From the IMG/VR virus record IMGVR_UViG_3300031949_000035, positions 1 through 61,516 of that record: a DNA stretch of 61,516 nucleotides; one strand, 5' to 3'. A program made the position numbers and the translations under genes. The stretch's first letter is position 1. Each line of letters starts with the position of its first letter. This stretch comes from a virus (taxonomy: Duplodnaviria; Caudoviricetes). The notes beneath the pieces were generated by a model, which did no database searches, was not told the DNA's origin, and saw only the letters and a list, made by a program, of their open reading frames with translations. Positions 28,341 to 50,612 of the stretch are shown here, piece by piece.

Positions 28341-28369
28341 TTGACAAAAAAGAATAGATATCATATAAT
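28341..28369 (+). promoter_or_regulatory. Consensus sigma70 promoter reading into array 1
   Basis: TTGACA-17-TATAAT, perfect consensus. Confidence 0.85.
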
Positions 28370-28431
28370 ATTAGGTATAGTTAGATGCGGAGATTGCCGG
28401 TTTATAATAGGGTTAAAGCAAAGGAGCACGG

Positions 28432-29184
28432 ATGCCTGTACGAGTTTTAGTGCCGATAAGTGGAGGCAAGGACTCGCAAGCCTCGCTTAAACTGGCACTG
28501 CAAACCTACAAGCCGGAAGAGGTGCGCGGACTGTTTTGTGACACGGGCTTTGAACACCCGATTACCTATGCACATATTGAAAAGCTGCGCGTGTTATACG
28601 GGGTAAGGATTGACGTAGTGAGTGGAGGAGATGTTCTTGGTAAATCGCTCAAGTATGGACGTTTCCCCGGTGGCGGAGCGCGGCACTGCACGAACGAACT
28701 CAAGATCAGGGAAACACGAATCTACTGCAAGGCACTGGCGGAACAGCAGGGCGGTTTTGAGGTTTGGTATGGAATGCGCCTAGATGAAAGTGTGGAACGT
28801 GGTAAGAGATATGCGGGAAAAGTTTGTGATGTTCTATACGCGCCACACGAAGTATTACCAAGCAAGTACCCTAAGTATTTGAAAAAGATGGGGGTTATGT
28901 TCCGGCTCTGTATTCTGCACTGGACGACGTGTGAGGTGATGGAGTTTTTGGATGGGGATCATAACCCGTTATATGACTCTGGGTTCCCAAGAGTGGGATG
29001 TTTCCCGTGCCTTGCCTCCGGTGATGCGTGGAAGGAAAAGGCTTTTTCGTATGATGACTTTGGGCGCGGGCAATTAGCTAAAGTGCTCGTTGTTTCAGCG
29101 AAGATAGGGAAAAGCATCTGGACATCGAAGGGTGGCAAGGAACGCAACGCTGAAAAGCCCGGATGCGAACTGTGCGCAATTTAA
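28432..29184 (+). CDS. PAPS reductase family protein
   Basis: SGGKDS, DTGFEHP, CT.ELK, NPLY..GF.RVGCFPC. Confidence 0.9.
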   Translation: MPVRVLVPISGGKDSQASLKLALQTYKPEEVRGLFCDTGFEHPITYAHIEKLRVLYGVRIDVVSGGDVLGKSLKYGRFPGGGARHCTNELKIRETRIYCKALAEQQGGFEVWYGMRLDESVERGKRYAGKVCDVLYAPHEVLPSKYPKYLKKMGVMFRLCILHWTTCEVMEFLDGDHNPLYDSGFPRVGCFPCLASGDAWKEKAFSYDDFGRGQLAKVLVVSAKIGKSIWTSKGGKERNAEKPGCELCAI

Positions 29185-29217
29185 GGAGAAAACATTAATA
29201 TCGATTTAGGGCAGAGC

Positions 29218-29622
29218 ATGGAAAAGATTGTTGGGATCAAGAACTACGAAAACGAGGATGGCTACTTCAATGTGGCCGGTTTTGAAGTTGTGACCGACAA
29301 GCAGAGCATTAAGCTCTACATCGAGAATGAGCGTTATTGCTGTGAACGGTGGGGTTATTTCTGGAGCAACGATAACCCGCATGATTTTGTTGGAGCGGAG
29401 TTGCGCGGCGTGAGCCTGACCGACACGGCGTTGAACGAGGCGCAAATGCGGGCGAACGATTTAAACCCAACTAACAGGCATTTCCGTGGCGGTTTGATGT
29501 TCGTGAATATTGGCACCGATAGGGGAATGCTGCAATTCGTGGCTTACAACGAGCACGACGGTGACTACGGGCACGAGGCGAAAGTTCAGTGTACCCAACT
29601 GATGCACCAGGAAGTGCTGTGA
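29218..29622 (+). CDS. Hypothetical protein
   Basis: CCE.WGY and QFVAYNEH.G.YGH motifs; followed by a possible attC remnant (GCCCAAC). Confidence 0.75.
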   Translation: MEKIVGIKNYENEDGYFNVAGFEVVTDKQSIKLYIENERYCCERWGYFWSNDNPHDFVGAELRGVSLTDTALNEAQMRANDLNPTNRHFRGGLMFVNIGTDRGMLQFVAYNEHDGDYGHEAKVQCTQLMHQEVL

Positions 29623-29722
29623 TGCCCAACGACCAATCTCAGATGTAGCAGAGGGCGGCATTGGGAAGAAGATAATGCCTTTTGGCTTTTAGGTAAACGC
29701 AATACGGAAAGATTACTTTCTA

Positions 29723-29959
29723 ATGGGAGAGGAAATGAGTAAATCAAAGGAGGTTATGAAAAAAATTGACACAGATTCTCTTAATGCTATTAAAGAAGCT
29801 TATATATCCTTGTTAAGTCTTGGCTTGGATTTTGCTGATAATAACTACCATTGGTCTACTTCCCAGCGCCGCGCATGGGAACGTACTGAAAAATTTCTTA
29901 GGCCATTTGTGCCATCAAAAGTTCTCGTTAGGATTTCTAAATCGGTACTCTCAATTTAG
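29723..29959 (+). CDS. Hypothetical protein
   Basis: ORF with SD-like sequence; start uncertain. Confidence 0.55.
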   Translation: MGEEMSKSKEVMKKIDTDSLNAIKEAYISLLSLGLDFADNNYHWSTSQRRAWERTEKFLRPFVPSKVLVRISKSVLSI

Positions 29960-29999
29960 GCATACCCTTTATTTACCTATGACGCTTATGAGGAGAGTT

Positions 30000-30203
30000 A
30001 TGGAACCAATTACAATAATTCAGTGTCCTCATTGTGAAGGGCAAGGATACAACATTCAATCTCATCCCGTTTATCGAGGGACAAGGGATATGGCAATTGA
30101 TGCAGGTGACATGGAATTTGAAGGTTGTCTTGCCCTGTTTGGTGAAGAATTGAGGAAGATATCGTGCGAGCATTGCGACGGCGTTGGCTCTATAAGGCCA
30201 TAA
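30000..30203 (+). CDS. DnaJ-type zinc-finger small protein
   Basis: CPHCEGQG and CEHCDGVG; AGGAG SD; stop lies in the first attC core. Confidence 0.7.
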   Translation: MEPITIIQCPHCEGQGYNIQSHPVYRGTRDMAIDAGDMEFEGCLALFGEELRKISCEHCDGVGSIRP

Positions 30204-30265
30204 CGTGGAAATAACCGGCTGACGCGGTTTCTTCGCGGCAGTCCGTGTTGATTGTAGGGTTAGGC
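30198..30265 (-). other. attC-like site 1
   Basis: CCATAAC...hairpin...GTTAGGC. Confidence 0.85.
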
Positions 30266-30297
30266 ACTCACCCTTGACGAGTGCGCTGGAGTAAAAC

Positions 30298-30450
30298 ATG
30301 AAAAAAATGATTTGTCATATCATAGCTTGGCTTGTTCAGTTCGCGGATAAGTATGCTTGTGAAACTTATGATAACAAAGCAGAACTTTCAAGCGGGCCGT
30401 GCGCAAGATGTGTTGGTCAAGAAGTTCGCGGGCCACAGAGCAGTGCCTAA
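30298..30450 (+). CDS. Cassette-borne 50-aa protein (MKKMICHII...)
   Basis: GGAG SD; cassette ends GTTAGGCACT / AGTGCCTAAC. Confidence 0.6.
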   Translation: MKKMICHIIAWLVQFADKYACETYDNKAELSSGPCARCVGQEVRGPQSSA

Positions 30451-30501
30451 CGTAGAAATCACCTGCCGCCGAAGGCGGTCAGGTGGATTGACGGGTTAGC
30501 C
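30445..30501 (-). other. attC-like site 2
   Basis: GCCTAAC..ATCACCTG-CCGCCGAAGGCGG-TCAGGTGGAT..GTTAGCC with extrahelical G. Confidence 0.9.
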
Positions 30502-31107
30502 ATAGCGCTGATGAGCCTGACGGGTATCAACAAGGTGCTTAAGAAAATCTTTGCCGTACTGGGTGATGTCAATTCGGTCTGCAACAAACGTAACAAGGTT
30601 GCTATTGAGTGGATACGAAAACCATTCCTCGAATTTCCTTCCCCCGTGAAGGTCTGGATATTCCTTCTGGGCCTGCTCGAAGGTGGCGTTGGCTTCTTGC
30701 CTTGTTATTCCGTTTTTTGTGCCGGAAATTTGAATTAGGAGCGCGACTTGACTACCAAAAATAGTGTGGGCAATGTTGTTGAACTCAAACTCAATTCGTG
30801 TGATTGCGAAAACACGAACAAGGGCGGCTATTTTTTCGCTATCTGTCGCCAAGCCAAGAGAGTGAATTTGTTTATCAACAAACTGCTCTCTCTCCAATGC
30901 GGTAGGAGACATCGGGTGTTTCATGATCTCTACGAACGGCAGAGGAGCGGGTTGCAACTCAGCCCCTTCTTGAGAGCGCTCGAAGGAAACGCTGTCTTTG
31001 GTGGCACTGGTAATGCCAGCGATCTTTTTAACTATCGCGGGCTTGAATTCTCGAATGGCGACCAAGCCAAGGAGAAGGGCTACTGCGGGCCAAATAAATA
31101 TGTCCAT
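30496..31107 (-). CDS. Cassette gene in canonical orientation; N-terminal TM plus winged-helix-like C-terminus
   Basis: 203 aa; IFGSQ..LL and IT.YG.DFL; ends GTTAGCCATA / TATGGCTAAC. Confidence 0.8.
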   Translation of the reverse strand: MDIFIWPAVALLLGLVAIREFKPAIVKKIAGITSATKDSVSFERSQEGAELQPAPLPFVEIMKHPMSPTALEREQFVDKQIHSLGLATDSEKIAALVRVFAITRIEFEFNNIAHTIFGSQVALLIQISGTKNGITRQEANATFEQAQKEYPDLHGGRKFEEWFSYPLNSNLVTFVADRIDITQYGKDFLKHLVDTRQAHQRYG

Positions 31108-31115
31108 ATATGTAT

Positions 31116-31178
31116 GGCTAACGTGGAGTTAACCGGCTCCGCGCTTTTGCGGAGTCCGGGTTGAACGGCGGGTTATGC
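31116..31178 (-). other. attC-like site 3
   Basis: GGCTAAC...GTTATGC hairpin. Confidence 0.9.
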
Positions 31179-31202
31179 CCCGTCTTAAATAAGGAGATAA
31201 AT

Positions 31203-31490
31203 ATGAGTAAGCCATACCCGGCACTATGCAAGGATTGCCGGCATGCAGTGCCGGAAGTGGGGAACGAGTGGAATTTGAGATGCCATCACCCAACTGTAAA
31301 TGCGCGTGATTCGTGGACACTGGCCTGTGGAAAAGGAAATGGCTCTGCTTGCCATGCGGAGCGCGAAAAGGGGTTTTTCTCCGCGTGTGGTATGAGTGGG
31401 AGGTTGTGGGTGGCGAAGGGGCATAACGCCGTGTTGAGCGGCGCGGGCGATTTTTGCCCGGTCGGTGTCGATCCGTTGGTTATAGAATAG
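31203..31490 (+). CDS. Cys-rich cassette protein reading through attC 4
   Basis: AGGAG SD; CKDCRH; ends GTTATGCCCC / GGGGCATAAC. Confidence 0.7.
   Translation: MSKPYPALCKDCRHAVPEVGNEWNLRCHHPTVNARDSWTLACGKGNGSACHAEREKGFFSACGMSGRLWVAKGHNAVLSGAGDFCPVGVDPLVIE
31421..31485 (-). other. attC-like site 4 (degenerate)
   Basis: GCATAAC...GTTATAG, imperfect stem. Confidence 0.65.
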
Positions 31491-31554
31491 GTTTCAATGA
31501 TCTATTATCAGGACCAACACATATTATTAGGGGTGCGCCCCGGGGAGGAATGTA

Positions 31555-31812
31555 ATGGGAATGTTTGACTATGTACATTTTGAAATGGATTGCCCAAAGT
31601 GCAACGCCAAAATAACAGACTTTCAATCGAAGGATAAAACTTGCAAAATGGAAACAATAGAGCCTGACTCGCTAATTAGCTTCTACAGTTCGTGTAAATG
31701 TGGAGCGTGGGTTGAGTTTCGCAGGCCAAGGCCAAAAATATCGCCGCTACGAGATACCGCTCTTACGCCGGATGAAGTGGCAGCTATGGGGTTCGTGATG
31801 GATGTGGTCTGA
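31555..31812 (+). CDS. Zinc-ribbon hypothetical protein
   Basis: MGMFD..CPKC....FQSKD phage motif. Confidence 0.75.
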   Translation: MGMFDYVHFEMDCPKCNAKITDFQSKDKTCKMETIEPDSLISFYSSCKCGAWVEFRRPRPKISPLRDTALTPDEVAAMGFVMDVV

Positions 31813-31837
31813 AATTCAAACAACGGAAGGGACTCGA

Positions 31838-32293
31838 ATGAAACTCACGGAACATTTTACCGTAGAAGAAATGACACATTCCGAGGCGGCAATCAGGCGG
31901 GGGCTTGACAACGCTTGCCCGGATGATTTGAAGGCAAATATGCAGCGGGTAGCTGATGCGCTTGAGGTAATCCGCGCCCACTACAACGCACCAATCCACG
32001 TTACAAGCTGCTATCGAGCGCCGGAGGTAAACAAGGCCGTGGGCGGTTCTCCGACAAGCGCCCACCGCTTTGCAAGCGCTGCGGACTTTGAAGTTTCGGG
32101 TGCTCAAAATATTGATGTATGCCGCAAAATCGCTGAACTACTGCCGGATTTCGACCAGATCATATATGAGTTTGGCCCTGCCGGCTGGGTGCATCTCGGA
32201 TTCACAGATAAAACTCCGAGAAAACAGTTGCTTTCCGCGGTCAAACGTAATGGCAAAACCGTACGTACTCCGCTCACGGACGCCAAATTCTAA
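31838..32293 (+). CDS. Peptidase M15A family endolysin candidate
   Basis: LTEHF..EEM..S, TS.YR...N.AVGG..TSAH....AAD, FDQ.IYE, WVH. Confidence 0.9.
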   Translation: MKLTEHFTVEEMTHSEAAIRRGLDNACPDDLKANMQRVADALEVIRAHYNAPIHVTSCYRAPEVNKAVGGSPTSAHRFASAADFEVSGAQNIDVCRKIAELLPDFDQIIYEFGPAGWVHLGFTDKTPRKQLLSAVKRNGKTVRTPLTDAKF

Positions 32294-32311
32294 TTTTAAG
32301 GAGGGATAAAA

Positions 32312-32569
32312 ATGATCGAACTTGGGGACAGAGTGAAGGACAAAATTTCAGGACTCAAAGGGATTGTGGTCGGCATTTCTAACTATTTATATGGATGTAA
32401 GAGGGTAAGCATCCAGCCGGAAGAGGCAAAAGATGGCAAGCCTGCGGAGTGGTACACTGTGGATGAACCTCAGCTTGAAATTGTAAAAAAGTCTGTGGTT
32501 TCTGGTAGAGATACACCTACACATGGACCAAGGGAGAATATACAACATAGGAAAGATGCAAGAAGATAA
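32312..32569 (+). CDS. Hypothetical SH3-like protein
   Basis: LGDRVKD.ISG..GIV.....LYGC phage motif. Confidence 0.75.
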   Translation: MIELGDRVKDKISGLKGIVVGISNYLYGCKRVSIQPEEAKDGKPAEWYTVDEPQLEIVKKSVVSGRDTPTHGPRENIQHRKDARR

Positions 32570-32619
32570 CGTTTAATTGAGGCGCGGCGTAGCCGTCGCG
32601 CTCGAATGATGGGTTGGGC
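32564..32619 (-). other. attC-like site 5
   Basis: AGATAAC...GTTGGGC hairpin. Confidence 0.85.
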
Positions 32620-32645
32620 GGAACGTAACTACGAAGAAAGGAAGC

Positions 32646-32954
32646 ATGATGGCAGGACTGATACCAGAGACAATTACCAGATTACAGGCTATTGCGTTTG
32701 TGCGAGACGCCGAACTTGAAGCGATAGGGCGCGACCGAATCATTCGCGCAAGCGCCGAACAGATGGCCGAACAAGCGTTGCACAAGATGCTGCGCGACTG
32801 CATCAAGACTGAAGGCGATTATATGGGCTACCAAGGACAGACGTTGCGCCTTGATGCGTACGTGCTAGCACCAGATGAACTGCATAAGATGCTCGCGGAA
32901 GCGAGAATGCAGGGAGAGCACGATGCTATGCGATGGGTGACGCCCAACGTGTAG
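32646..32954 (+). CDS. Cassette hypothetical protein
   Basis: Ends GTTGGGCG / CGCCCAAC. Confidence 0.7.
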   Translation: MMAGLIPETITRLQAIAFVRDAELEAIGRDRIIRASAEQMAEQALHKMLRDCIKTEGDYMGYQGQTLRLDAYVLAPDELHKMLAEARMQGEHDAMRWVTPNV

Positions 32955-32988
32955 GTAAGGCGCGCCGCGCTTCACCGTAAGGTTATAC
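32942..32988 (-). other. attC-like site 6 (short, internally deleted)
   Basis: GCCCAAC...GTTATAC, 47 bp. Confidence 0.65.
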
Positions 32989-33005
32989 GTCTTTTTGAGG
33001 ATAAT

Positions 33006-33290
33006 ATGAAAACATTGTGTAATTTTTGCAGCTCCCAAACATCTAATGGCAAAGGCTCCGTTGAATGCGGAAAGTCTGTGTTTGTCCGTGATGAATATGG
33101 AAATCACAAACAAGGTGCGGCGTGCATACATGACAGCGACCTGAAAGATTTTTTTATGACGAGAACCGGGCATGAAATTAGCATACACAACTTGTCATCC
33201 ACGATCGAACGGCAAAGCAATGACCTGATGAAGGCGCGGGATAAAATTACCGCACTGGAAAACAGGCTGGTAAAAGTTGGTGACGTATAA
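33006..33290 (+). CDS. Cassette hypothetical protein
   Basis: GAGG SD; ends GTTATACGTC / GACGTATAAC. Confidence 0.7.
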   Translation: MKTLCNFCSSQTSNGKGSVECGKSVFVRDEYGNHKQGAACIHDSDLKDFFMTRTGHEISIHNLSSTIERQSNDLMKARDKITALENRLVKVGDV

Positions 33291-33406
33291 CGCAAAATTA
33301 ACCAGCGGTGCGCTCACTGCACCCGAAACGGAGAAATAACATGGATAAATCACTGAACGTAAAAACCCCCGCTGGCGCACCGTCTGCGTTGAATGTAGGG
33401 TTGGGC
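33285..33406 (-). other. attC-like site 7 (long, holds RBS and ATG)
   Basis: GTATAAC..CGGTGCGC...GCGCACCG..GTTGGGC; GGAG plus ATG 33341 in the loop. Confidence 0.8.
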
Positions 33407-33547
33407 ATCGGAACTTTATTTGCTCTTGCTGGATGTTCAGGCGCTACCGGGAACATCACCGCGATCGATCCAACAGAGCGCGGATTATCGTATGCGGCCG
33501 CTGCCATTGTCACCTCCGCAGTAATTAAAGCGATATGCAACAAGTGA
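33341..33547 (+). CDS. Small putative lipoprotein starting inside attC 7
   Basis: LFALAGC lipobox-like motif. Confidence 0.55.
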   Translation: MDKSLNVKTPAGAPSALNVGLGIGTLFALAGCSGATGNITAIDPTERGLSYAAAAIVTSAVIKAICNK

Positions 33548-33650
33548 TGCCAACGCAAAGTTGAGCACCAGCCAACAGCGCGAAGGAAAACTATTAATAA
33601 TACTAAAAATGACCCCTCTGTTGGCTGTGCGCTCGAACGCCGGGTTATGC
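33548..33650 (-). other. attC-like site 8 (long)
   Basis: TGCCAAC..CAGCCAACAG...CTGTTGGCTG..GTTATGC. Confidence 0.85.
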
Positions 33651-34468
33651 CCCTCACGCTGTGGCATGGGGATTGCCTCGATTTGATGGCACAGATACCC
33701 GATGCGTCGGTAGATATGATCTTGTGCGACCTGCCCTACGGAACGACCGTCTGCAAATGGGATACGGTGATACCTTTTGAGCCGCTTTGGGCGCACTACA
33801 AACGCGTGATTAAGCCGAACGGGGCGATATTGCTCCTTGCGCAAACCCCCTTTGATAAGGTTTTGGGGGTAAGCAACCTGCCGATGTTGCGGTATGAGTG
33901 GATATGGGAAAAAACGGCGGCCACCGGCCACCTGAACGCCAAGAAGATGCCGATGAAGGCGCACGAGAACGTCTTGGTGTTCTACTCTCAGTTGCCGAAG
34001 TACAGACCGCAGAAAACAACAGGGCATAAACCCGTGAACAGTTACACAAAACACCAAGACGACGGCGAATGCTACGGAGCAACCATGATTGGTATCAGTG
34101 GCGGTGGAGCGACTGACCGCTACCCTCGGAGCGTATTGCAGTTTCAGAGCGACAAGCAAACCTGCAGCCTTCACCCAACTCAGAAGCCTCTGGCACTGAT
34201 TGAGTACATGATCCGCACCTACACTGACGGAGGCGAGACGGTTTTGGATAATTGTATGGGTAGCGGAACTACGGGCATCGCGTGCCTGAATACAGGGCGC
34301 AACTTCATCGGAATAGAAAAAGACCCAAAATACTTTGAGATTGCACGGAATAGGATTGAGGGGCATAACGTTCAAATTGAGGGGCAGGCCGCTCTGGCCT
34401 GTCCCTCTCGAATGCAGGGTTGGGCTCTGCGAAAAGTGAGAAATGAAACTTATAATGAACAGATTTAA
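33647..34468 (+). CDS. N4-C/N6-A DNA methyltransferase (beta class), cassette
   Basis: GDCL, DLPY, HPTQKP, DNCMGSGTT; ends GTTATGCCCCTCA / TGAGGGGCATAAC; reads through attC 9. Confidence 0.92.
   Translation: MPLTLWHGDCLDLMAQIPDASVDMILCDLPYGTTVCKWDTVIPFEPLWAHYKRVIKPNGAILLLAQTPFDKVLGVSNLPMLRYEWIWEKTAATGHLNAKKMPMKAHENVLVFYSQLPKYRPQKTTGHKPVNSYTKHQDDGECYGATMIGISGGGATDRYPRSVLQFQSDKQTCSLHPTQKPLALIEYMIRTYTDGGETVLDNCMGSGTTGIACLNTGRNFIGIEKDPKYFEIARNRIEGHNVQIEGQAALACPSRMQGWALRKVRNETYNEQI
34363..34425 (-). other. attC-like site 9
   Basis: GCATAAC...CAGGCC-GCTCT-GGCCTG...GTTGGGC. Confidence 0.9.
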
Positions 34469-34525
34469 CGATGAAGACGACGGATGGGATTACGATCCAT
34501 CCATACCTGATGATGGGTGGGGAAA

Positions 34526-35023
34526 ATGAAAACCCCCGCCAAACTTAAACAAGAATCTCGATGGGTGGAATCTGATGTAGTTTACACTCCAGACCATATT
34601 GCTGAGTGGATAGTAAACTATTTTAAACCACAAGGTTTATGCCTTGACCCTTGTAAAGGTGGTGGAGCATTTTATAATAAATTCCCCGGTGAAAAGGACT
34701 GGTGCGAAATCAGAGATGGTAGGAACTTTTTTGACCATACAACAAAGGCAATCTGGATTATCACAAACCCGCCATTTACAAATATAGAGCGATTCATGGA
34801 ACATTCATTTTCTCTGGCCGATAATGTGGTTTTCTTATTGCCTGCACATAAAACATTTTCTTCATGGGCGCGAATCCGGCTCATAGAAGCCTATGGCGGG
34901 ATTGTAACAATCTTATTGGTAAAAGGTCAGCAGTGCCAATTCCCTTTCAGATACCCTTATGGAGTATTTCACTTCCAGAAAGGATATAATGGCGGCACAC
35001 TGATACAGAACTGTGAAGCCTAA
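34526..35023 (+). CDS. Small amino-methyltransferase (NPPF), cassette
   Basis: YTP, LDPCKGGGAF, ITNPPF. Confidence 0.85.
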   Translation: MKTPAKLKQESRWVESDVVYTPDHIAEWIVNYFKPQGLCLDPCKGGGAFYNKFPGEKDWCEIRDGRNFFDHTTKAIWIITNPPFTNIERFMEHSFSLADNVVFLLPAHKTFSSWARIRLIEAYGGIVTILLVKGQQCQFPFRYPYGVFHFQKGYNGGTLIQNCEA

Positions 35024-35077
35024 CGGCAAGGTAAGAGGCTCGCCGTAGGCGAGTCCTGCTTGACCGTTAGGTTAGGC
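35018..35077 (-). other. attC-like site 10
   Basis: GCCTAAC...CTCGCC-GTA-GGCGAG...GTTAGGC. Confidence 0.9.
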
Positions 35078-35098
35078 TGGTTTTTATTGGAGACGAAG

Positions 35099-35281
35099 AT
35101 GTGAAAAGAAATACGCATAGAAATTTGCTGGGGATGGATAGATTGGATTTGCTCCAAAAAACGCTATGGTGTACGGATTCAATCTTTCTGGATCGGAGCA
35201 AGCCTGCCGATACCGAAGCGCGATTTTGATAAGCGCGAAAAGTCGATGAAGGAATGGCTAAAAACTATGCGTGATGCCTAA
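35099..35281 (+). pseudogene. Cassette ORF with TGA at codon 2
   Basis: GGAG SD, ATG-TGA, then 58 open codons (KEIRIEICWGW...MRDA) ending at the attC TAA. Confidence 0.6.
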
Positions 35282-35339
35282 CGTTTGAATTAAGGGGTAG
35301 GCCGCTTTTGGCCTGTCCCTCTTGAATGAGGGGTTCGAC
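35276..35339 (-). other. attC-like site 11
   Basis: GCCTAAC-6-ATTAAGG...CTTGAAT-5-GTTCGAC, bottom-strand layout on the + strand. Confidence 0.9.
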
Positions 35340-35361
35340 CCCGATACTACGGAGAACGGTT

Positions 35362-35733
35362 ATGGGATGGAGCATTGGCTACGACACAAACTGGAAGCGC
35401 GACATAGGCTATGGTGTACCGGCTTATTGTGACCATCCAGGCTGCAATGAAGTCATTGATCGCGGATTGAGTTATGTTTGTGGTGGTGAGCCTTTTGGTG
35501 GGGAACATGGCTGCGGTTTGTACTTTTGTGGGAAGCACACCACTTACCACGAAACGCGGGGAAGTGTTTGCGCGCCATGTGCAGATAGAAGGAAAAAGCC
35601 ATTTGAAGCCAAGCCAGACCATCCTGATTGGATAAAGTGGAAACTAACTGATGAAAGTTGGCGGCAATGGCGGGACGAGAACCCTGATGCAGTAGCGAAA
35701 TTAAAGGGGTCGAACGTAAAGTTAACCGGCTAG
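35362..35733 (+). CDS. Cys/His-rich cassette protein
   Basis: RDIGYGVPA.CDHP.C...IDRGL...CG; ends GTTCGACCCC / GGGGTCGAAC. Confidence 0.8.
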   Translation: MGWSIGYDTNWKRDIGYGVPAYCDHPGCNEVIDRGLSYVCGGEPFGGEHGCGLYFCGKHTTYHETRGSVCAPCADRRKKPFEAKPDHPDWIKWKLTDESWRQWRDENPDAVAKLKGSNVKLTG

Positions 35734-35775
35734 CCGGGCTTTATCGGCTAGTCCGAGTTGAACGCCGGGTTATGC
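35709..35775 (-). other. attC-like site 12
   Basis: GTCGAAC...CTAGCCG..CGGCTAG...GTTATGC. Confidence 0.9.
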
Positions 35776-35791
35776 CGGTTTTGAGGTAAAT

Positions 35792-36495
35792 ATGAAATCA
35801 ATTGCTGGAACACTTGCTGCACCATTTCCGTATTTTGGCGGGAAAGCGAACGCTTGCGAATTGGTGTTTGGGATGGTGAAAAGATTGTTGACCGCCGCAA
35901 GCTCCCGCATCTTGGTGACGCTGGGCGGGGCATCAACCGCCAGCTCCCGCATCTTAGCGCTGGGCGGGGCGAATACATCGCGGAGTGGTTCAACCTGCTA
36001 CATGCGCGCCTTCGTGATGTGCGGGTAGCCTGCGGCGATTGGCAGCGGGTGTGCAAAGATAGCGTGACCACGCGTCACGGCTTGACGGGTATCTTTCTTG
36101 ACCCGCCATACGATAAAGGCGCGATGGACTACGGCGCTGGTGGCATGGGGCAAAATATATCATCATCGGTGAGAGAGTGGTGCGCGGATAACGGCGATGA
36201 TCGGCAATTGAGGATCGTTATTTGCGGACACGCGGGGGAACATGACGACCTACTAAAGATAGGCTGGAAACTGCACAAGTGGACGGCTCGTAAAGGGTAC
36301 GCTCTGACCGACGAAGCAAAAGAAAACTCAGCCAGCGAAACGGTGTGGGCTTCGCCGCATTGCCTGCACAAGAAAAACGAACAGGGCGGATTGTTTGATA
36401 TTTCCGACACGCCACGCGATGCTTACGAGCAAACAGACTTCATAGCCAGTGCGCTAGGGGTGGGGCATAACCAGTTATTAGACAGTTGGGAATGA
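35792..36495 (+). pseudogene. Dam/D12-class adenine methyltransferase with internal deletion and frameshift
   Basis: PFPYFGGK in one frame, IFLDPPY in another; motif I (EPF.G) region absent. Confidence 0.8.
36465..36484 (-). other. attI-like simple site at the head of array 1
   Basis: Minus strand TGTCTAAT-AACTG-GTTATGC: L box, 5-bp spacer, core; no hairpin. Confidence 0.6.
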
Positions 36496-44295: not shown

Positions 44296-44541
44296 ATGAC
44301 AGAGCTAAAAGGACTCAAAAAGGCGCAAGCCTTGAATAAGGCCCGGCTTGAGTCCGGGGAAAGGATCGTTCTGAAAACGCCAATTGAACGGTTTGAAAAG
44401 AACAAAAAGTCGTTGCGGCTTGCAATAAACGCCAAATGTTTCGACTGCTCCGGGTTTGTTAAAACAGAGATAACTAAATGCGTGGCCACGTCCTGTCCAC
44501 TTTTTTATGTCAGGCCATATAAAAAAAGAATTGACAAATAG
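44296..44541 (+). CDS. Cys-motif hypothetical protein
   Basis: AINAKCFDC...CPLF.VRPY. Confidence 0.7.
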   Translation: MTELKGLKKAQALNKARLESGERIVLKTPIERFEKNKKSLRLAINAKCFDCSGFVKTEITKCVATSCPLFYVRPYKKRIDK

Positions 44542-44559
44542 CCGCAATTGCTTTATACT
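44531..44559 (+). promoter_or_regulatory. sigma70 promoter
   Basis: TTGACA-17-TATACT. Confidence 0.75.
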
Positions 44560-46163: not shown

Positions 46164-46550
46164 ATGAGAAAAAAGGTGCATGAAAAATATGGCGGGCAAT
46201 GTGCATATTGTGGAAAGGTCATCACTCTAAAACAGATGCAAATTGACCACATTATCCCAAAACGGGCTCTCTCGGAAACAGAGAGATGCCTGATTGTTGG
46301 AGGCCGTAAATTTACCGAGTATGAATTAAACGATTTTCACAACCTGGCCCCTGCGTGTAGGCCGTGCAACAACTTTAAATCGGGGATGCCCTTGGAGGAC
46401 TTCAGACATGAAATAGCGGCGCAACCCGGACGGTTAAGGCACTACCGGAATCAGTTTCGCTTGGCCGAAAGGTTTGGCCTAGTGTCAGTCAACGATGTCC
46501 GGGTGGTATTTTTCTTTGAGAGCTATGATAGTTTCGTGGGGGGGATATGA
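46164..46550 (+). CDS. HNH endonuclease
   Basis: CAYCG, IDHIIP, NL.PACRPCN..K. Confidence 0.9.
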   Translation: MRKKVHEKYGGQCAYCGKVITLKQMQIDHIIPKRALSETERCLIVGGRKFTEYELNDFHNLAPACRPCNNFKSGMPLEDFRHEIAAQPGRLRHYRNQFRLAERFGLVSVNDVRVVFFFESYDSFVGGI

Positions 46551-46765
46551 TTTGCATGGACTGTAAACGTGAAGTTAAATATTTTCCAAGGGAAGGAGAG
46601 TTGCAGGCAATTTTGATTGAGTCTCCTCCACCTGGGGCAAGTGGAAATAGTATTTATAATTGCGAGGTATGTTATAACGCGCCGCTGACCGCAAACCCGG
46701 TCGAGGCATACGAAAAAGTGAAGGAGTTATTAGACCGGCGCGACCTTACGCGCTGTTTTTATTAA
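46547..46765 (+). CDS. CxxC hypothetical protein
   Basis: ATGA overlap. Confidence 0.55.
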   Translation: MICMDCKREVKYFPREGELQAILIESPPPGASGNSIYNCEVCYNAPLTANPVEAYEKVKELLDRRDLTRCFY

Positions 46766-46787
46766 TTCTTTATAATGTAAGTCTGAA

Positions 46788-46850
46788 GTCTAACTCTCCG
46801 CTTGAGGGGCGCGACTGAAAGGAGCGTCCCGCTCGAAGCGGTTGTTATGT
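46788..46850 (-). other. attC-like site 13
   Basis: GTCTAAC...GTTATGT. Confidence 0.85.
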
Positions 46851-46999
46851 TTCAAACAAACTATGCGTTTTCTGTCTCTATGAGCCTCCCCAGGCGGGGG
46901 ATAATCAGTGTGCAGAGAAATCACCTGATTTACAAAACGAGGCGACATCACCAACGCGCCTATCTACACATGACGGCTGGCCGATCCAGCCTCCTAAGA

Positions 47000-47087
47000 A
47001 GATAACGCCGTGCTGAACCGCACGGGAACAGACAAATGCCAAAACCGACCGCGCTTATTCCGTGTCGGTTCGAGCAGATTGTTAACA
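47000..47087 (-). other. attC-like site 14
   Basis: AGATAAC..TGCTGAACCG...CGGTTCGAGCA..GTTAACA. Confidence 0.85.
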
Positions 47088-47101
47088 CTTTTTGTTATTT
47101 T

Positions 47102-47178
47102 GCGGAGGTAGTTTAATTGGTAGAACAGTTGACATTCCAGTTAACCAGTGGCGGTTCAAACCCGACCTCTCCGCTCCA
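47102..47178 (+). tRNA. tRNA-Gly(TCC)-like element, non-canonical, overlapping the Mom-like gene start
   Basis: Acceptor GCGGAGG/TCTCCGC-T-CCA, D arm, TTCAAAC T loop; anticodon loop of 6 or 8 nt and a T-stem mismatch. Confidence 0.6.
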
Positions 47179-47722
47179 ATATTTCATAGAGCCAGTGAGA
47201 TACGAAGCAGCGAAAGCCTTTGTTGAGCATTGGCACTATTCAAAGAGGATGCCAACAGGGAAAAACATCTGCTTTGGATTGAGAAGGGCTGGCGAAATGT
47301 ACGCGGTGATAGTTTACGGCATAGGCGTGAATCCGTATCAGGCGCAGTTTTTAGGCGTGAAAGAGTGCATGGAAATAAAAAGGATGTGCCGGAGAGAGCC
47401 GAAAGAAGACTATCCTCTTTCACGGCTGATTAACCTGACGACAAAGATGCTGAAGAAGCAGGAGAGTTTTCAGGCTGTTGTGGCTTTTGCTGACCCGGAG
47501 CAAGGGCACGAAGGGACAGTCTACAAGGCCGCAGGATACGAACACAAAGGGATGAGCAACGCAGAGTGGCATCTTGAAGACGAAGACGGCAACAAGAGGC
47601 ACAGGCGATTTGCTTTCAGAATGGCAAGACGGAACGGTATTTCTGTTTCTGAGGCAAGAGATCAGTTAAACGTAAAAAGAGTGCAGACCGCCCCGAAGCA
47701 CAGATGGGTGAGGTTTGTATGA
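47117..47722 (+). CDS. Mom-like adenine-modification (GNAT-fold) protein, cassette
   Basis: HWHYS, EIKRM, FADP.QGH.GTVYKA.G; ends GTTAACACT / AGTGTTAAC; start uncertain. Confidence 0.85.
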   Translation: MVEQLTFQLTSGGSNPTSPLQYFIEPVRYEAAKAFVEHWHYSKRMPTGKNICFGLRRAGEMYAVIVYGIGVNPYQAQFLGVKECMEIKRMCRREPKEDYPLSRLINLTTKMLKKQESFQAVVAFADPEQGHEGTVYKAAGYEHKGMSNAEWHLEDEDGNKRHRRFAFRMARRNGISVSEARDQLNVKRVQTAPKHRWVRFV

Positions 47723-47726
47723 AGAG

Positions 47727-47785
47727 TGTTAACGTTAAATTAAGGGGCGCGCTTTAGCGCGTCCCGCTTGAATGAAAGGTTAGAC
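47727..47785 (-). other. attC-like site 15
   Basis: TGTTAAC..ATTAAG...CTTGAAT-5-GTTAGAC. Confidence 0.9.
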
Positions 47786-48043
47786 ATGAGAATTAAACAA
47801 TGTCACCCAGCATGGCCGCAACATGCGTCTTTCAGTTGCCCGACTTGTGGAAGTTTATATCAAGACGGGGATGAATATGATGAACATTCATACGGGCCAG
47901 ATGACGGTGAAAGCATGGCTCAATGTTTGCGGTGTAACAACGGGTTTATCGTGCGGAGAATTGTTACCGTAACTTACCACACCGAGAAACCCGGCAATAA
48001 AATACCTGTTGTTGTCATACGCCGGGATCATAAAGATGCCTAA
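47786..48043 (+). CDS. Zinc-ribbon cassette protein
   Basis: CPTCG and CLRC..F.V.R.V...Y. Confidence 0.7.
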   Translation: MRIKQCHPAWPQHASFSCPTCGSLYQDGDEYDEHSYGPDDGESMAQCLRCNNGFIVRRIVTVTYHTEKPGNKIPVVVIRRDHKDA

Positions 48044-48096
48044 CGACAAGCTAAGCCGCCGCGCTTTTTGCGGTCGGCTTGAGCGATTTGTTAAGT
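48038..48096 (-). other. attC-like site 16
   Basis: GCCTAAC..CTAAGCCG...CGGCTTGAG..GTTAAGT. Confidence 0.9.
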
Positions 48097-48102
48097 ATTT
48101 TT

Positions 48103-48315
48103 TTATTTATCATCGGATTTTTGATTTTCTCCGAAATTTAAATTTAATGGTTGTCTTAATTCAATTTGAAAGGATGCATCAGACCATGAATTTTTACCAT
48201 AATCAATCGTTGAAATTGTGGCTTTATATGTTTCATTTGCGGCATCAGAAATAGCTTTTGCAATAATGGACTCCATTTGTTGAACAGAAATAGATTTTAA
48301 TTTATTTTCAAACAT
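48103..48315 (-). CDS. AT-rich cassette hypothetical protein, canonical orientation
   Basis: 70-aa ORF inside the GTTAAGT / ACTTAAC cassette. Confidence 0.6.
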   Translation of the reverse strand: MFENKLKSISVQQMESIIAKAISDAANETYKATISTIDYGKNSWSDASFQIELRQPLNLNFGENQKSDDK

Positions 48316-48343
48316 AATTAATTTCTTTTCAGGAGGTATAAAA

Positions 48344-48562
48344 ATGACGACCGCCGATGCAGTCGAATTTCACAAAATTATGAAGTATCTTAGTATTTAT
48401 TATCCTATCAATTCGATAAACAGTGATACGGTTTATGTTTATTTTGATGCCCTTTCCGAATATAAAGTTGAAGATATTTATAAAGCGGTAAAGTTATATA
48501 TTAAAAAAGAGACAAAATTCCCCAGTGTTTCTGAGTTGATTTCTTATTTATGTCGAACTTAA
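48344..48562 (+). CDS. G39P-like helicase loader/inhibitor N-domain, cassette
   Basis: AGGAGG SD; YF.AL..Y....I..AV...IK..T.FP.VSEL. Confidence 0.65.
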   Translation: MTTADAVEFHKIMKYLSIYYPINSINSDTVYVYFDALSEYKVEDIYKAVKLYIKKETKFPSVSELISYLCRT

Positions 48563-48619
48563 CGATAAGCTCACCAGTTGCCAGGTTTATTGGCAATCTG
48601 GTGGAGCGCCTTGTTAGGC
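48557..48619 (-). other. attC-like site 17
   Basis: ACTTAAC..CTCACCAG...CTGGTGGAG..GTTAGGC. Confidence 0.9.
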
Positions 48620-48636
48620 GCAGAAAGGATTGACAA

Positions 48637-49131
48637 ATGAACAAAACTATGAGGACTATAGATAAAGAAGGTGGAGCGGCTGTTGGCTCGACCGATTTGT
48701 TAGCCGAATTGACGGAGCGGCGAAGCAAGTTCGTATATGATGCCGCCCGACTCGCCGCACAAGCTGCCAACGCACCAATAATCCCCGTGCCGTGGGACGA
48801 GCGCGAAGAACCTTTCCAGGTACAATTCCGAAAAGTCATAGACCGGCAATGCGGAGAACAGCGCTCTCGCTCACCGGAAGAACTACACGGTAGCTGGATG
48901 CAGGCATACTTCGGGATGGGCTGGGTGTTCGGAACTGAATACAGCCGCGAGAACAAGACGCATCCAGACCTCGTACCATACGCAGACCTTGGCCAACTCG
49001 AACGAGATAAAGACGCTGTGTTCGTGTCTCTCTGCGAGATTGCGCGCCAATGGGTGTATTCAGCTAACTCTCCGCATGAGCGCGCCGCCGAAGGCGGTCC
49101 GCTCGATGCGGTGGTTGTGCGTCAAACGTAA
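48637..49131 (+). CDS. RyR-domain-like phage protein; both termini attC-encoded
   Basis: H.SWM......GW..G and KTHPDLVPY.DL...E..KD; half attC at about 48672-48705. Confidence 0.75.
   Translation: MNKTMRTIDKEGGAAVGSTDLLAELTERRSKFVYDAARLAAQAANAPIIPVPWDEREEPFQVQFRKVIDRQCGEQRSRSPEELHGSWMQAYFGMGWVFGTEYSRENKTHPDLVPYADLGQLERDKDAVFVSLCEIARQWVYSANSPHERAAEGGPLDAVVVRQT
49062..49120 (-). other. attC-like site 18
   Basis: AGCTAAC...CCGCCGAAGGCGG...GTTGTGC. Confidence 0.9.
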
Positions 49132-49144
49132 CTACGGAGTGAGG

Positions 49145-49900
49145 ATGAATGAGTTGGCACTTTTTGCAGGAGCAGGCGGAGGCATCTTGGGAGGGCACTT
49201 GCTTGGATGGCGCACCCGATGCGCTGTTGAGATTGATGCCTACTGCCGAAGCGTGCTGCTCGCCCGCCAACGCGACGGACTGCTGCCAAGATTCCCGATT
49301 TGGCACGGCGTGCGAACATTCGACGGAAAGCCTTGGCGCGGGCGAATTGATGTTGTCTCCGGGGGCTTCCCGTGCCAGGACATCAGCGCAGCCGGCAAGG
49401 GCGCAGGACTCAGCGGAGAGCGCAGCGGATTGTGGGGAGAAATGGCCCGCATCATTGGCGAAGTACGACCGCTGTACGCGTTCGTGGAGAACTCGCCAAT
49501 ACTCACTTCTCGGGGGCTTGGACGAGTTCTGGGAGACTTGGCCGAAATGGGGTTTGATGCGCGGTGGGGAGTGCTGGGCGCGCGACACGTTGGCGCATGC
49601 CACCGACGCGACCGGCTTTGGATTTGTGCCAACCGTGCTGACATCGGAAGCGACGGGGCCTGGCCTACATGGGAACGGGAGCCACAATTTCCGAACGTGG
49701 TTTCGAGAGAACAGCACAGAGCGCAGGTTGCCGCTGCACGGGGAACTTATGATGCTATGGCCGGTGGGCTGGGCAAGCGCTGGAGAGCAATTGGAAATGG
49801 ACAAGTTCCGGCAGTGGCAGCGGCAGCATGGCGGATTTTGACGCACAACGCCAAGGGTGAGCGGCGGCATTATCGCCCGCTCGACCCGTTGGTTAGGTAA
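49145..49900 (+). CDS. C5 cytosine DNA methyltransferase (alpha chain), cassette
   Basis: LFAGAGG, GGFPCQD, FVEN, H.R.R, AIGNGQVP; ends GTTGTGCGTCAAA / TTTGACGCACAAC. Confidence 0.92.
   Translation: MNELALFAGAGGGILGGHLLGWRTRCAVEIDAYCRSVLLARQRDGLLPRFPIWHGVRTFDGKPWRGRIDVVSGGFPCQDISAAGKGAGLSGERSGLWGEMARIIGEVRPLYAFVENSPILTSRGLGRVLGDLAEMGFDARWGVLGARHVGACHRRDRLWICANRADIGSDGAWPTWEREPQFPNVVSREQHRAQVAAARGTYDAMAGGLGKRWRAIGNGQVPAVAAAAWRILTHNAKGERRHYRPLDPLVR
49149..49841 (+). CDS. Overlapping +1-frame polypeptide carrying a motif IX-like segment (beta chain)
   Basis: 230 open codons; LPLHGELMMLWPVGW resembles motif IX, which the main frame lacks. Confidence 0.65.
   Translation: MSWHFLQEQAEASWEGTCLDGAPDALLRLMPTAEACCSPANATDCCQDSRFGTACEHSTESLGAGELMLSPGASRARTSAQPARAQDSAESAADCGEKWPASLAKYDRCTRSWRTRQYSLLGGLDEFWETWPKWGLMRGGECWARDTLAHATDATGFGFVPTVLTSEATGPGLHGNGSHNFRTWFRENSTERRLPLHGELMMLWPVGWASAGEQLEMDKFRQWQRQHGGF
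49843..49898 (-). other. attC-like site 19
   Basis: GCACAAC..GGGTGAGCGG...CCGCTCGACCC..GTTAGGT. Confidence 0.9.
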
Positions 49901-49917
49901 ATACTATGTTGTGGCGA

Positions 49918-50127: not shown

Positions 50128-50133
50128 AGTGAT

Positions 50134-50475: not shown

Positions 50476-50513
50476 TAACGCAGCTCCATATTTACTATGA
50501 ATCTATTTTTGGA

Positions 50514-50576
50514 ATCTAACGACCCAAGTTGAGCGGAGGCACCGCAGGTGACTTCCGCTCGAACGACTGGTTAGCC
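50514..50576 (-). other. attC-like site 20
   Basis: ATCTAAC..GTTGAGCGGA...TCCGCTCGAAC..GTTAGCC. Confidence 0.9.
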
Positions 50577-50612
50577 GACGAACCGAAAACTTAAACCATA
50601 AGGAGAAGAAAG

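What the first reader, a model, noticed from the sequence alone, without database searches (positions are those of the whole stretch)
28341..36484. Cargo is inverted relative to integrons and driven from the tail of the array
Seen: the + strand has the bottom-strand layout (site 11: core, 6 bp, ATTAAGG ... CTTGAAT with extra G, 5 bp, core), so canonical cassette genes should lie on the minus strand. More than 20 cargo genes are instead on +. A perfect TTGACA-17-TATAAT promoter at 28341 reads into array 1 from its distal end; array 2 is downstream of the 44531 promoter. Inference: this is a phage-adapted class of reversed cassettes, expressed in the phage but antisense to Pc if parked in a host integron.
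Basis: partly seen in the sequence, partly recalled or inferred. Interest (0 to 1): 0.85.

Follow-up and report, generated by a model that had tools for sequence, protein, structure and literature searches.

The report
Phage integron cassettes with reversed genes
This phage keeps about two dozen small accessory genes between integron-type recombination hairpins, but every hairpin faces the opposite way, relative to its gene, from those in bacterial integrons, and the same reversed layout recurs in many other phage sequences.

Summary
The window is a 61.5-kb phage record with two arrays of 12 attC-type hairpins each (30198-35775 and 46425-52366). All 24 have the bottom-strand layout on the + strand: AAC at the 5' end, extrahelical G and T on the opposite arm. 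The + strand is also the coding strand.

A covariance model built from these sites hits known class 1 attC sites on the strand opposite the resistance gene. It does the same in bacterial arrays of this hairpin family (Nitrosomonadales and relatives): 136 intervals opposite, 13 same, 55 unclear. In phage records the genes lie on the model's strand (113 same, 0 opposite, 19 unclear; window 15/1/6). Pfam matches agree.

Phage records that carry their own integron integrase keep the normal integrase-to-hairpin geometry, but their genes are flipped too (81 same, 8 opposite, 6 unclear).

The perfect promoter at 28341 is real. Its use is untested, because no RNA data were found. The window has no integrase.

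I found no paper describing it. This scan has noted the same layout before on other phage DNA. Why the polarity is reversed remains unknown.

The parts
28341..28369 (+). sigma-70-type promoter TTGACA-17-TATAAT, reading towards array 1 from the end far from the attI-like core
   Evidence: 12 of 12 consensus match. Activity not tested.
28432..30203 (+). four genes ahead of the first hairpin: PAPS-reductase-like (28432-29184), DUF7448 (29218-29622), a 78-aa ORF, a 67-aa zinc-ribbon ORF
   Evidence: Pfam PAPS_reduct 4.7e-18 and DUF7448 1.4e-8. No R1 hit between them.
30198..30265 (+). attC-type site 1, bottom-strand layout on +
   Evidence: R1 63.8 bits. Bulges G, T, T on the 3' arm.
30445..30501 (+). 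attC-type site 2 (two-bulge type, GAA loop)
   Evidence: R1 48 bits. Bulges G, T on the 3' arm.
30496..31107 (-). the one cargo ORF (203 aa) in canonical orientation; its stop lies in the core of site 2
   Evidence: codon score 29.5 against 8.2. No Pfam or PHROG match.
31116..31178 (+). attC-type site 3
   Evidence: R1 72.3 bits.
31421..31485 (+). attC-type site 4, degenerate
   Evidence: R1 19.1 bits, E 0.014. Folds as a multiloop.
31802..32293 (+). cargo: peptidase M15
   Evidence: Pfam Peptidase_M15_3 2.2e-21.
32312..32569 (+). cargo: phage protein of unknown function
   Evidence: phrog_16275 2.3e-18.
32564..32619 (+). attC-type site 5
   Evidence: R1 56.6 bits.
32942..32988 (+). attC-type site 6, short
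   Evidence: R1 35.6 bits.
33285..33406 (+). attC-type site 7, long central part
   Evidence: R1 35.3-48.4 bits.
33548..33650 (+). attC-type site 8, long central part
   Evidence: R1 28.8 bits.
33647..34468 (+). cargo: N6/N4 DNA methyltransferase; the ORF reads through site 9
   Evidence: Pfam N6_N4_Mtase 2e-26.
34363..34425 (+). attC-type site 9
   Evidence: R1 71.7 bits.
34517..35023 (+). cargo: DNA methyltransferase
   Evidence: phrog_799 1.2e-27.
35018..35077 (+). attC-type site 10
   Evidence: R1 67.1 bits.
   Evidence: R1 70.1 bits. Sequence read.
35362..35733 (+). cargo: phage protein; 39 relatives in other phage records, none with attC sites nearby
   Evidence: phrog_18518 5.2e-41..
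35709..35775 (+). attC-type site 12
   Evidence: R1 63.5 bits.
35792..36495 (+). last cargo of array 1: methyltransferase-like, in two overlapping frames
   Evidence: phrog_1996 5.3e-5 on 35854-36495. ORFs 35792-36028 and 35854-36495.
36465..36484 (+). terminal GCATAAC core without a hairpin, at the end where attI lies in records that have intI
   Evidence: sequence read. A similar lone GCATAAC core lies 30 nt before intI in L249. Resemblance only.
44531..44559 (+). promoter-like site upstream of array 2
   Evidence: 11 of 12 match. Activity not tested.
46425..52366 (+). array 2: 12 attC-type sites at 46425, 46788, 47727, 48038, 48557, 49062, 49843, 50514, 51210, 51630, 52001, 52301, all on +. 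Cargo on + includes Mom-like (47117-47722), RyR-domain (48637-49131) and RNA ligase (50613-51215).
   Evidence: R1 hits of 12.9-77.3 bits. Pfam Mom 1.1e-33, RyR 3e-8, RNA_ligase 1.6e-9.

Best explanation
The window holds two integrase-less arrays of genuine integron-type attC sites inside a phage operon, belonging to the family used by chromosomal integrons of Nitrosomonadales-like betaproteobacteria. In both arrays the recombinogenic bottom strand is the coding strand. Each gene therefore has the reverse polarity, relative to its hairpins, of a bacterial integron cassette.

Shown: the site features, the strand, the gene strand, and the recurrence of this layout across phage records, including records with their own intI.

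Inferred:
- The sites are recombined by an integron integrase. This would be the host's in this phage, or one on the missing third of the genome.
- Crossover is at AA|C of the 5' core, so a movable unit is hairpin plus downstream gene.
- The array is transcribed from phage promoters such as 28341, entering at the end far from the attI-like core.
- A phage cassette placed at a bacterial attI would be antisense to Pc, and a bacterial cassette in the phage array would be antisense to phage transcription.
For: Site identity. In 125 phage sites aligned to the model, AAC/GTT is kept in 124-125. The L-box helix is 98.3% paired, with compensatory changes at all 11 pairs (390 double changes against 136 in shuffles; 0 of 500 shuffles reach this). 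Extra bases lie only on the arm opposite AAC: G in 116 of 125, a middle base in 107 of 125, T in 120 of 125. The AAC arm has 1-2 of 125. This matches Nivina 2016.

Strand calibration. R1 hits the attC of aadA1 (39.1 bits) and of aac(6')-IIa (28.9 bits) on the strand opposite the gene.

Survey. Bacterial arrays: 136 opposite, 13 same, 55 unclear of 204 intervals. Viral arrays: 113 same, 0 opposite, 19 unclear of 132. Window: 15, 1 and 6 of 22.

Pfam family matches at E<=1e-4. Viral same-strand ORFs: 24 families among 122 ORFs. Viral opposite-strand: 0 among 84. Bacterial opposite-strand: 48 families among 122 ORFs (122 of 177 were given). Bacterial same-strand: 1 (PIN) among 97.

Cross-locus protein conservation. 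Bacterial pairs: 21 opposite-opposite. Viral pairs: 9 same-same and 1 opposite-opposite, of which 3 pairs (including the opposite-opposite one) come from one duplicated record. Window to viral: 2 same-same.

Platform geometry. In R100, in 3 host-type loci and in the phage record L249, the bottom strand is the intI strand and the array lies upstream of the intI start. In L249 the genes point at intI. Of 143 R1 hits in 70 intI-bearing viral loci, 139 follow that geometry, with gene calls of 81 same, 8 opposite and 6 unclear.

Reading frame. Phage ORFs that cross the AAC core do so only in the frame that reads AAC as a codon: 48 of 48 viral and 6 of 6 in the window. In bacteria the frames are 8, 2 and 4 over the three phases.

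Hosts. All 5 of 5 host-type genomes tested carry intI above the cut-off.
Against: - The window has no intI. The record is estimated 64% complete. Four phage records at 95-100% completeness that carry arrays also lack intI above the family cut-off.
- No RNA evidence exists for the promoter or for read-through.
- No excision junction was seen. The contig joints at attC sites have sides under 30 nt and are unusable.
- 48 of 113 phage ORFs run 8 nt or more into the next site, against 14 of 136 in bacteria, so the units are not clean modules.
- Near-identical hairpin blocks (50514 against 51210; 34363 against L117) stop before the 3' spacer rather than at a crossover point. This hints at gene conversion or another process.
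- No cargo is shared between viral and bacterial arrays in my sample, so exchange with host integrons is unsupported.
- R1 is my own model, not the curated attC model. Gene strands come from a codon score that is right in about 85% of 300-nt test pieces.
Confidence: 0.8

Rival explanations
1. The hairpins are real attC look-alikes, but in the phage they work at the RNA or translation level (punctuation, stop supply, transcript stability) and are no longer recombined. On this view the orientation reflects what the sense RNA needs.
For: - ORFs end in the sites or read through them in one fixed frame.
- 48 of 113 ORFs use the next site as coding sequence.
- Most phage records with arrays lack intI: 1 of 25 has one.
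- No excision junctions were seen.
Against: - Features that matter only for integrase binding are kept: the invariant AAC/GTT, the G and T extrahelical bases at fixed spacing, and the unpaired spacers.
- At least 41 viral loci have intI directly beside such arrays, at 298-1325 nt.
- The sites score as high as host chromosomal sites with the same model.
Confidence: 0.1
2. The reversal is historical accident. One ancestral phage acquired a platform in this orientation and its descendants inherited it, so there is no constraint on polarity.
For: - 17 of 36 records are chained by shared flanking proteins.
- All examples come from one attC family and one broad host group.
- TJE1, from another host group, is canonical.
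Against: - The other 19 of 36 records share no flanking protein with any other. The caveat is that the loci are short.
- Cargo is almost entirely different between records.
- 51 relatives of the window's PAPS-reductase region mostly lack arrays; only 1 has sites.
- 0 of 132 intervals are opposite in arrays without intI, and 81 of 95 are same in those with intI.
Confidence: 0.07
3. The strand call is wrong and these are ordinary cassettes with the top strand on +.
For: The ORF placement looks canonical. Genes start a median of 20-26 nt after a site and often stop in the next core.
Against: - The fold-based criterion agrees with the model in 13 of 15 sites.
- Calibration on aadA1, aac(6')-IIa, TJE1 and 204 bacterial intervals gives the opposite relation with the same model.
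Confidence: 0.03

Closest known systems
Classical integron cassettes and attC sites (class 1 In2/aadA1 of plasmid R100; chromosomal integrons of Nitrosomonadales-type bacteria)
   Same: The site anatomy is the same: AAC/GTT cores, paired L boxes, unpaired spacers, G and T extrahelical bases and a variable centre. The sites form one-way arrays and the bottom strand lies on the intI strand where intI is present.
   Different: The genes lie on the bottom strand instead of the top strand. The promoter candidate sits at the end far from the attI-like core instead of a Pc beside attI. The cargo is phage-type (methyltransferases, Mom, NinG, an Acb2/Tad1-like domain) rather than toxin-antitoxin modules, GNAT enzymes and the like.
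CALINs (clusters of attC sites lacking an integrase) in phage genomes, Qi et al. 2023, PMC9892861 (abstract, section 3.4 and passages read)
   Same: These are integrase-less attC clusters in phages, with DNA methyltransferases among the cargo. That paper showed IntI1 recombines phage-borne attC sites.
   Different: The text of that paper does not discuss gene strand against attC strand. Its figures and supplements were not visible to me. In TJE1, one of its phages, my model places the bottom strand opposite the annotated genes, which is the canonical arrangement. The arrays here are larger (12 + 12 sites) and reversed.
Reverse-oriented cassettes inside bacterial chromosomal integrons, mostly toxin-antitoxin cassettes with their own promoter (Richard et al. 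2024, PMC13108822, passages read)
   Same: Here too an ORF lies on the strand that Pc does not serve.
   Different: In bacteria these are a minority: 13 of 204 intervals in my sample, and the one same-strand Pfam match was a PIN toxin. In the phage arrays they are the rule.
Integrons with intI in the same direction as the cassettes (Treponema-type 'inverted integrase' integrons; recalled from memory, not checked in any call)
   Same: intI and the cassette genes point the same way, as in L249 and L264.
   Different: As I recall, in those integrons intI lies upstream of the cassettes. Here intI lies downstream, and the intI-to-attC geometry is the ordinary one. I did not test this against sequences.

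Membership tests
integron attC site | Inverse cores ending in AAC and starting with GTT that pair | tested here: met
   AAC/GTT is kept in 124-125 of 125 aligned phage sites, window sites included.
integron attC site | Structure conserved more than sequence (paired L boxes with compensatory change) | tested here: met
   The L helix is 98.3% paired and all 11 pairs covary. 0 of 500 shuffles reach the observed score. Slid controls pair at 29-49%.
integron attC site | Extrahelical bases on one arm only: G in the L box and a conserved T about 6-8 nt further on | tested here: met
   G in 116 of 125 and T in 120 of 125 on the arm opposite AAC. The AAC arm has extra bases in 1-2 of 125. The definition is from PMC5027507.
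integron attC site | Recombined by an integron integrase as a folded bottom strand | not testable with these tools
   This needs an attC x attI assay. The only evidence here is indirect: intI lies beside such arrays in 41 viral loci.
canonical integron gene cassette | ORF on the attC top strand, so that Pc at attI can express it | tested here: not met
   In the window 15 of 22 intervals are on the bottom strand and 1 on the top. Family matches are on +.
complete integron | intI (TIGR02249) next to attI and the array | tested here: not met
   There is no match in the 61.5-kb record. The record is estimated 64% complete, so absence from the whole phage is not shown.
CALIN | Two or more attC sites in one orientation with no integron integrase nearby | tested here: met
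   12 + 12 sites, all on +, and no intI in the record.

The most novel reading that the evidence does not exclude
Phages of integron-bearing bacteria keep their own pool of mirror-image cassettes that borrows the integron machinery, either the host's IntI or a phage copy.

On this reading the reversed polarity is functional in two ways:
- It puts the recombinogenic strand on the non-template strand, which is probably also the lagging-strand template. Phage transcription and replication would then drive hairpin folding and rapid shuffling.
- It acts as an expression firewall. Host cassettes, which include toxins and anti-phage defences, would be silent if captured by the phage. Phage counter-defence cassettes would be silent if captured by the host.

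The fixed reading frame across the crossover point would let any gene be joined to any hairpin without losing its stop.
Probability: 0.3. Interest if true: 0.9.

Novelty: new variant of a known kind. Interest (0 to 1): 0.8.

Why it matters
Integrons are treated as a bacterial system in which hairpin polarity guarantees that captured genes face the cassette promoter. A large phage-side set of arrays with the same hairpins but the opposite gene polarity, some with their own integrase, would have three consequences.

- The machinery would serve two separate gene pools.
- Phage accessory and counter-defence genes (methyltransferases, Mom, Acb2/Tad1-like) could be shuffled as cassettes.
- Integron-finding pipelines that assume the canonical polarity may mis-annotate phage cassettes.

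It also gives a natural experiment for two open questions: how strand, transcription and replication control attC folding, and how cassettes arise.

Tried and rejected
- **Rfam.** The search at gathering scores listed only a borderline tRNA hit and no attC family. ARAGORN found no tRNA.
- **Crude site scan.** A scan for AAC...GTT pairs with fold energy gave about 30 hits per strand, mostly noise, so I dropped it in favour of a covariance model.
- **ORF length for gene strand.** Longest-ORF length or overlap pointed the same way but left many intervals unclear. One search gave bacteria 139 opposite, 6 same, 59 unclear and viral 42 same, 17 opposite, 73 unclear. One search gave bacteria 148, 0 and 56 and viral 22 same, 5 opposite, 105 unclear. 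I replaced this with a codon log-likelihood score.
- **Relatives of the PAPS-reductase gene.** Of 51 viral loci, only one (L007) had sites, and the cargo was mostly not shared. This gave no synteny-based test of cassette borders.
- **Does a gene travel with its upstream or its downstream hairpin?** Site identities between homologous genes were within background except in one pair, so the result is inconclusive.
- **RNA evidence.** No RNA holder was listed.
- **Laying the one DNA run.** The contigs break at attC sites and the joints have sides of 23-54 nt between similar hairpins. They are not usable as excision evidence, and the uncovered stretch 31391-33357 proves nothing.
- **Megablast of the first 20 kb against the phage collection.** No match.
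- **L003.** This plasmid locus held no cassette array and was not used.
- **IntI comparison.** The phage IntI proteins are 59-64% identical to the three closest host IntI, 44-45% to a fourth and 54-57% to IntI1, and 64% to each other, so there is no clear phage clade from 7 sequences.
- **Literature.** Searches found no paper on reversed cargo in phage attC arrays. Supplements and figures of Qi et al. 2023 were not visible and might show gene-against-attC arrows.

Full report
**What the window is.** The window is a whole IMG/VR virus record of 61,516 bases, linear, with an estimated completeness of 64%. Minus-strand genes fill 1-28,300, + strand genes fill about 28,400-52,400, and a giant minus-strand gene lies at the right end. 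It has no match to the integron integrase family TIGR02249.

**The sites.** Reading 28,200-37,000 showed repeated units of 47-122 nt. Each starts with a core ending in AAC, often right at a stop codon, and ends with GTTRRRY. I folded 15 of them as DNA with AAC/GTT forced to pair. In 13 of 15 every single-base bulge lay on the 3' arm of the + strand: a G inside TT(G)AA, a variable base three pairs on, and a T three pairs further.

Nivina et al. 2016 (PMC5027507; abstract and passages read) give the defining criterion. The extrahelical bases lie on the AAC arm in the top strand and opposite it in the bottom strand. The first is usually G and the last a conserved T. By that criterion the + strand is the bottom strand. 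The control attC of aadA1 from plasmid R100, read in the sense of its gene, has its extra bases (C, A) on the AAC arm. Its reverse complement has G and T on the far arm.

**A model and its calibration.** I built a covariance model (R1) from 11 + strand sites with a hand-written structure.
- In the window, with filters off, it found 24 sites at E<1 (21 at E<=0.014), all on +. There are 12 between 30198 and 35775 and 12 between 46425 and 52366. The best minus-strand hit has E 0.89.
- In two class 1 integrons it hit the attC of aadA1 (39.1 bits) and of aac(6')-IIa (28.9 bits) on the strand opposite the gene. The long attC of blaIMP-1 was missed.
- In phage TJE1, whose attC sites were shown to be recombined by IntI1 (Qi et al. 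2023, PMC9892861, section 3.4 read), it hit three sites on the minus strand (E 9.4e-5, 1.4e-4, 0.12) behind + strand orf1-3, which is the canonical arrangement.

The model's strand is therefore the bottom strand, and it can report both polarities.

**Gene strand in the window.** Pfam and PHROG matches on + are listed below.
- Ahead of the arrays: PAPS_reduct and DUF7448.
- In array 1: Peptidase_M15_3, N6_N4_Mtase, a phrog_799 methyltransferase, phrog_18518, phrog_16275 and a split methyltransferase-like gene.
- In array 2: Mom, an RyR domain and RNA_ligase.

A codon log-likelihood score was right in 661 of 783 300-nt test pieces for viral DNA. It of 22 inter-site intervals on +, 1 on minus (30496-31107) and 6 unclear. 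GC skew is positive throughout 28-52 kb.

**Promoters.** TTGACA-17-TATAAT at 28341 is a 12 of 12 match, 44531 is 11 of 12, and another perfect match lies at 42819. The scan as a whole is not above its shuffles (32 found against 25.4 expected). The argument rests on the perfect matches and their placement at the head of the + strand block, not on counts. No RNA data were available.

**Where the hairpin family comes from.** I drew a pattern from five window sites and searched it on both strands. Nearly all the bacterial hits are Betaproteobacteria such as Methylotenera, Gallionella, Sideroxydans, Thiobacillus and Nitrosomonas. R1 then found 287 sites in the bacterial loci and 170 in the viral loci, mostly one strand per locus, though three viral loci (L096, L106, L127) carry blocks on both strands. 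All five host-type genomes I tested carry intI above the family cut-off.

I used the same model and the same codon score on intervals of 120-3000 nt between neighbouring sites on the same strand.

| Set | Intervals | Genes opposite the model strand (canonical) | Genes on the model strand (reversed) | Unclear |
|---|---|---|---|---|
| Bacterial loci | 204 | 136 | 13 | 55 |
| Viral loci | 132 | 0 | 113 | 19 |
| Window | 22 | 1 | 15 | 6 |

Simpler ORF-length rules pointed the same way but left more intervals unclear, and gave 17 and 5 'opposite' calls in viral loci, three of them in L120.

Pfam at E<=1e-4 gave independent support:
- Viral same-strand ORFs: 24 families among 122 ORFs. These include DUF5131, an Rv2179c-like exonuclease, a C5 methylase, NinG, Phage_gp49_66, N6_N4_Mtase, the Acb2/Tad1 hairpin domain, Mom and GIY-YIG.
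- Viral opposite-strand ORFs: 0 families among 84 ORFs.
- Bacterial opposite-strand ORFs: 48 families among 122 ORFs (122 of 177 were given). These include BrnT, HigB, GNAT and NIPSNAP.
- Bacterial same-strand ORFs: 1 family (PIN) among 97 ORFs.

Protein conservation between loci agrees. Bacterial pairs gave 21 opposite-opposite. Viral pairs gave 9 same-same and 1 opposite-opposite; three of these pairs, including the opposite-opposite one, come from one duplicated record (L103 = L116). Window to viral gave 2 same-same. No viral-bacterial pair was found.

**Are the viral records phages, and are they independent?** Genes flanking the arrays include DnaB, NinG, a C5 methylase and Sak/RecT annealing proteins, which is a lambdoid-type early region. 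By shared flanking proteins the 36 records fall into one chained group of 17 plus 19 singletons. The loci are short, so this overestimates independence. One cargo gene of the window (phrog_18518) has 39 relatives in other phage records with no attC site nearby. At least some cargo is therefore ordinary phage genes that here sit between hairpins.

**Records with their own integrase.** One of 25 array-bearing viral records has intI above the cut-off. In that record (L249) ten sites at 8264-13009 lie on +. The genes between them also lie on +: an Rv2179c-like exonuclease, DHH/DHHA1 and a Mom-like protein. intI follows at 13319-14350 on +, and then ParB-like and SSB genes.

In R100 and in three host-type loci the bottom strand is likewise the intI strand, and the array lies upstream of the intI start. 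Two of those three loci are ordinary arrays called 8 opposite/1 same and 2 opposite/0 same. The third (L264) was called 3 same. It turned out to be a prophage with an antirepressor, an N6_N4 methylase in the array, intI, a second tyrosine integrase and then the host's glutamyl-tRNA synthetase gene.

Searching viral contigs with the phage IntI gave 71 loci. R1 hit 41 of the 70 searched. Of 143 hits, 139 lie on the intI strand upstream of intI, and the last site lies 298-1325 nt from it. Gene calls were 81 same, 8 opposite (6 of them in L320, a provirus record) and 6 unclear of 95 intervals, with one duplicate locus dropped. The platform is thus ordinary and only the genes are flipped. New cassettes entering at attI would land at the far end of the phage transcription unit.

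**Site conservation.** In 125 phage sites aligned to the model, 91% of cells pair against 74% in shuffles. The L helix pairs at 98.3%, with compensatory changes at all 11 pairs. AAC/GTT is invariant in 124-125 sites. The bulges are G (116 of 125), a variable middle base (present in 107) and T (120), all on one arm. The alignment was fitted to the model, which favours pairing, but the slid controls (29-49% paired) show the signal is specific.

**What does not fit a simple mirror image.** Phage ORFs often run on into the next site: 48 of 113, against 14 of 136 in bacteria. If crossover is at AA|C, those genes would change their last codons when moved. Yet every one of the 48, and 6 of 6 in the window, crosses the core in the frame that reads AAC as a codon and never in the third frame. 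In bacteria the read-on frames are mixed, at 8, 2 and 4. This suggests that the genes and the hairpins have adapted to each other in this polarity.

Two pairs of almost identical hairpins begin their identity at the 5' core and lose it before the 3' spacer, which is not a crossover point. The pairs are 50514 against 51210 in the window, and 34363 against a site in L117 that follows a methylase only 40% identical. I cannot explain this. No cargo is shared with bacterial arrays in my sample, so exchange with host integrons is unsupported.

**Literature.** The only paper I found on attC sites in phages is Qi et al. 2023. Its text does not compare gene strand with attC strand, and its figures and supplements were not visible. 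Nivina et al. 2016 state that cassettes inserted facing the promoter have not been observed in mobile or chromosomal integrons. Reverse-oriented toxin-antitoxin cassettes with their own promoters are known (PMC13108822, passages). Eight searches found no description of reversed cargo in phage arrays. Notes from this scan report the same layout on other phage DNA. They agree with what I tested here, but they are not independent evidence.

**Verdict.** This is a phage-side variant of integron cassette arrays in which genes lie on the recombinogenic strand. Promoter use, actual recombination and the reason for the reversal remain to be shown.

Noticed in passing
window arrays and L094-L127: ORFs that cross the AAC core of the next site always do so in the frame that reads AAC as a codon (48 of 48 viral, 6 of 6 in the window). 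In bacterial arrays the frames are mixed, at 8, 2 and 4.
   Followed up: partly
L264 7906-15197: A prophage in a Thiobacillus-type genome carries an integron integrase (11378-12409) next to its own phage integrase (12543-13520) and the host gltX gene. A reversed cassette array with an N6_N4 methylase lies just upstream.
   Followed up: partly
L265-L335: 71 viral contigs encode relatives (46-100% identity) of the phage integron integrase, so integrase-bearing phage integrons seem common in this collection.
   Followed up: partly
window 50514-50576 and 51210-51270: Two sites share a 52-nt identical block from CTAAC to the end of the second L box, with unrelated flanks. The second site has lost its GTT core.
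   Followed up: partly
window 34363-34425 and L117 6919-6982: The hairpins are nearly identical, yet they follow methyltransferases that are only 40% identical. The window's gene is in a different frame at its end and reads through the site.
   Followed up: partly
window 47103-47174: A borderline Rfam tRNA match (29.6 bits against a threshold of 29) overlaps the start of the Mom-like gene. ARAGORN finds no tRNA.
   Followed up: no
window 35792-36495: The last cargo gene of array 1, methyltransferase-like, is split over two overlapping frames.
   Followed up: no
window 42819-42848: A second perfect promoter consensus (TTGACA, 18 nt, TATAAT, with TG before the -10) lies between the two arrays.
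   Followed up: no
L320: In one provirus record with intI the array is canonical (6 opposite, 1 unclear). It may be a bacterial integron caught inside a provirus call.
   Followed up: no
window 54930-61514: A giant minus-strand ORF of at least 2194 aa runs off the right end of the record.
   Followed up: no
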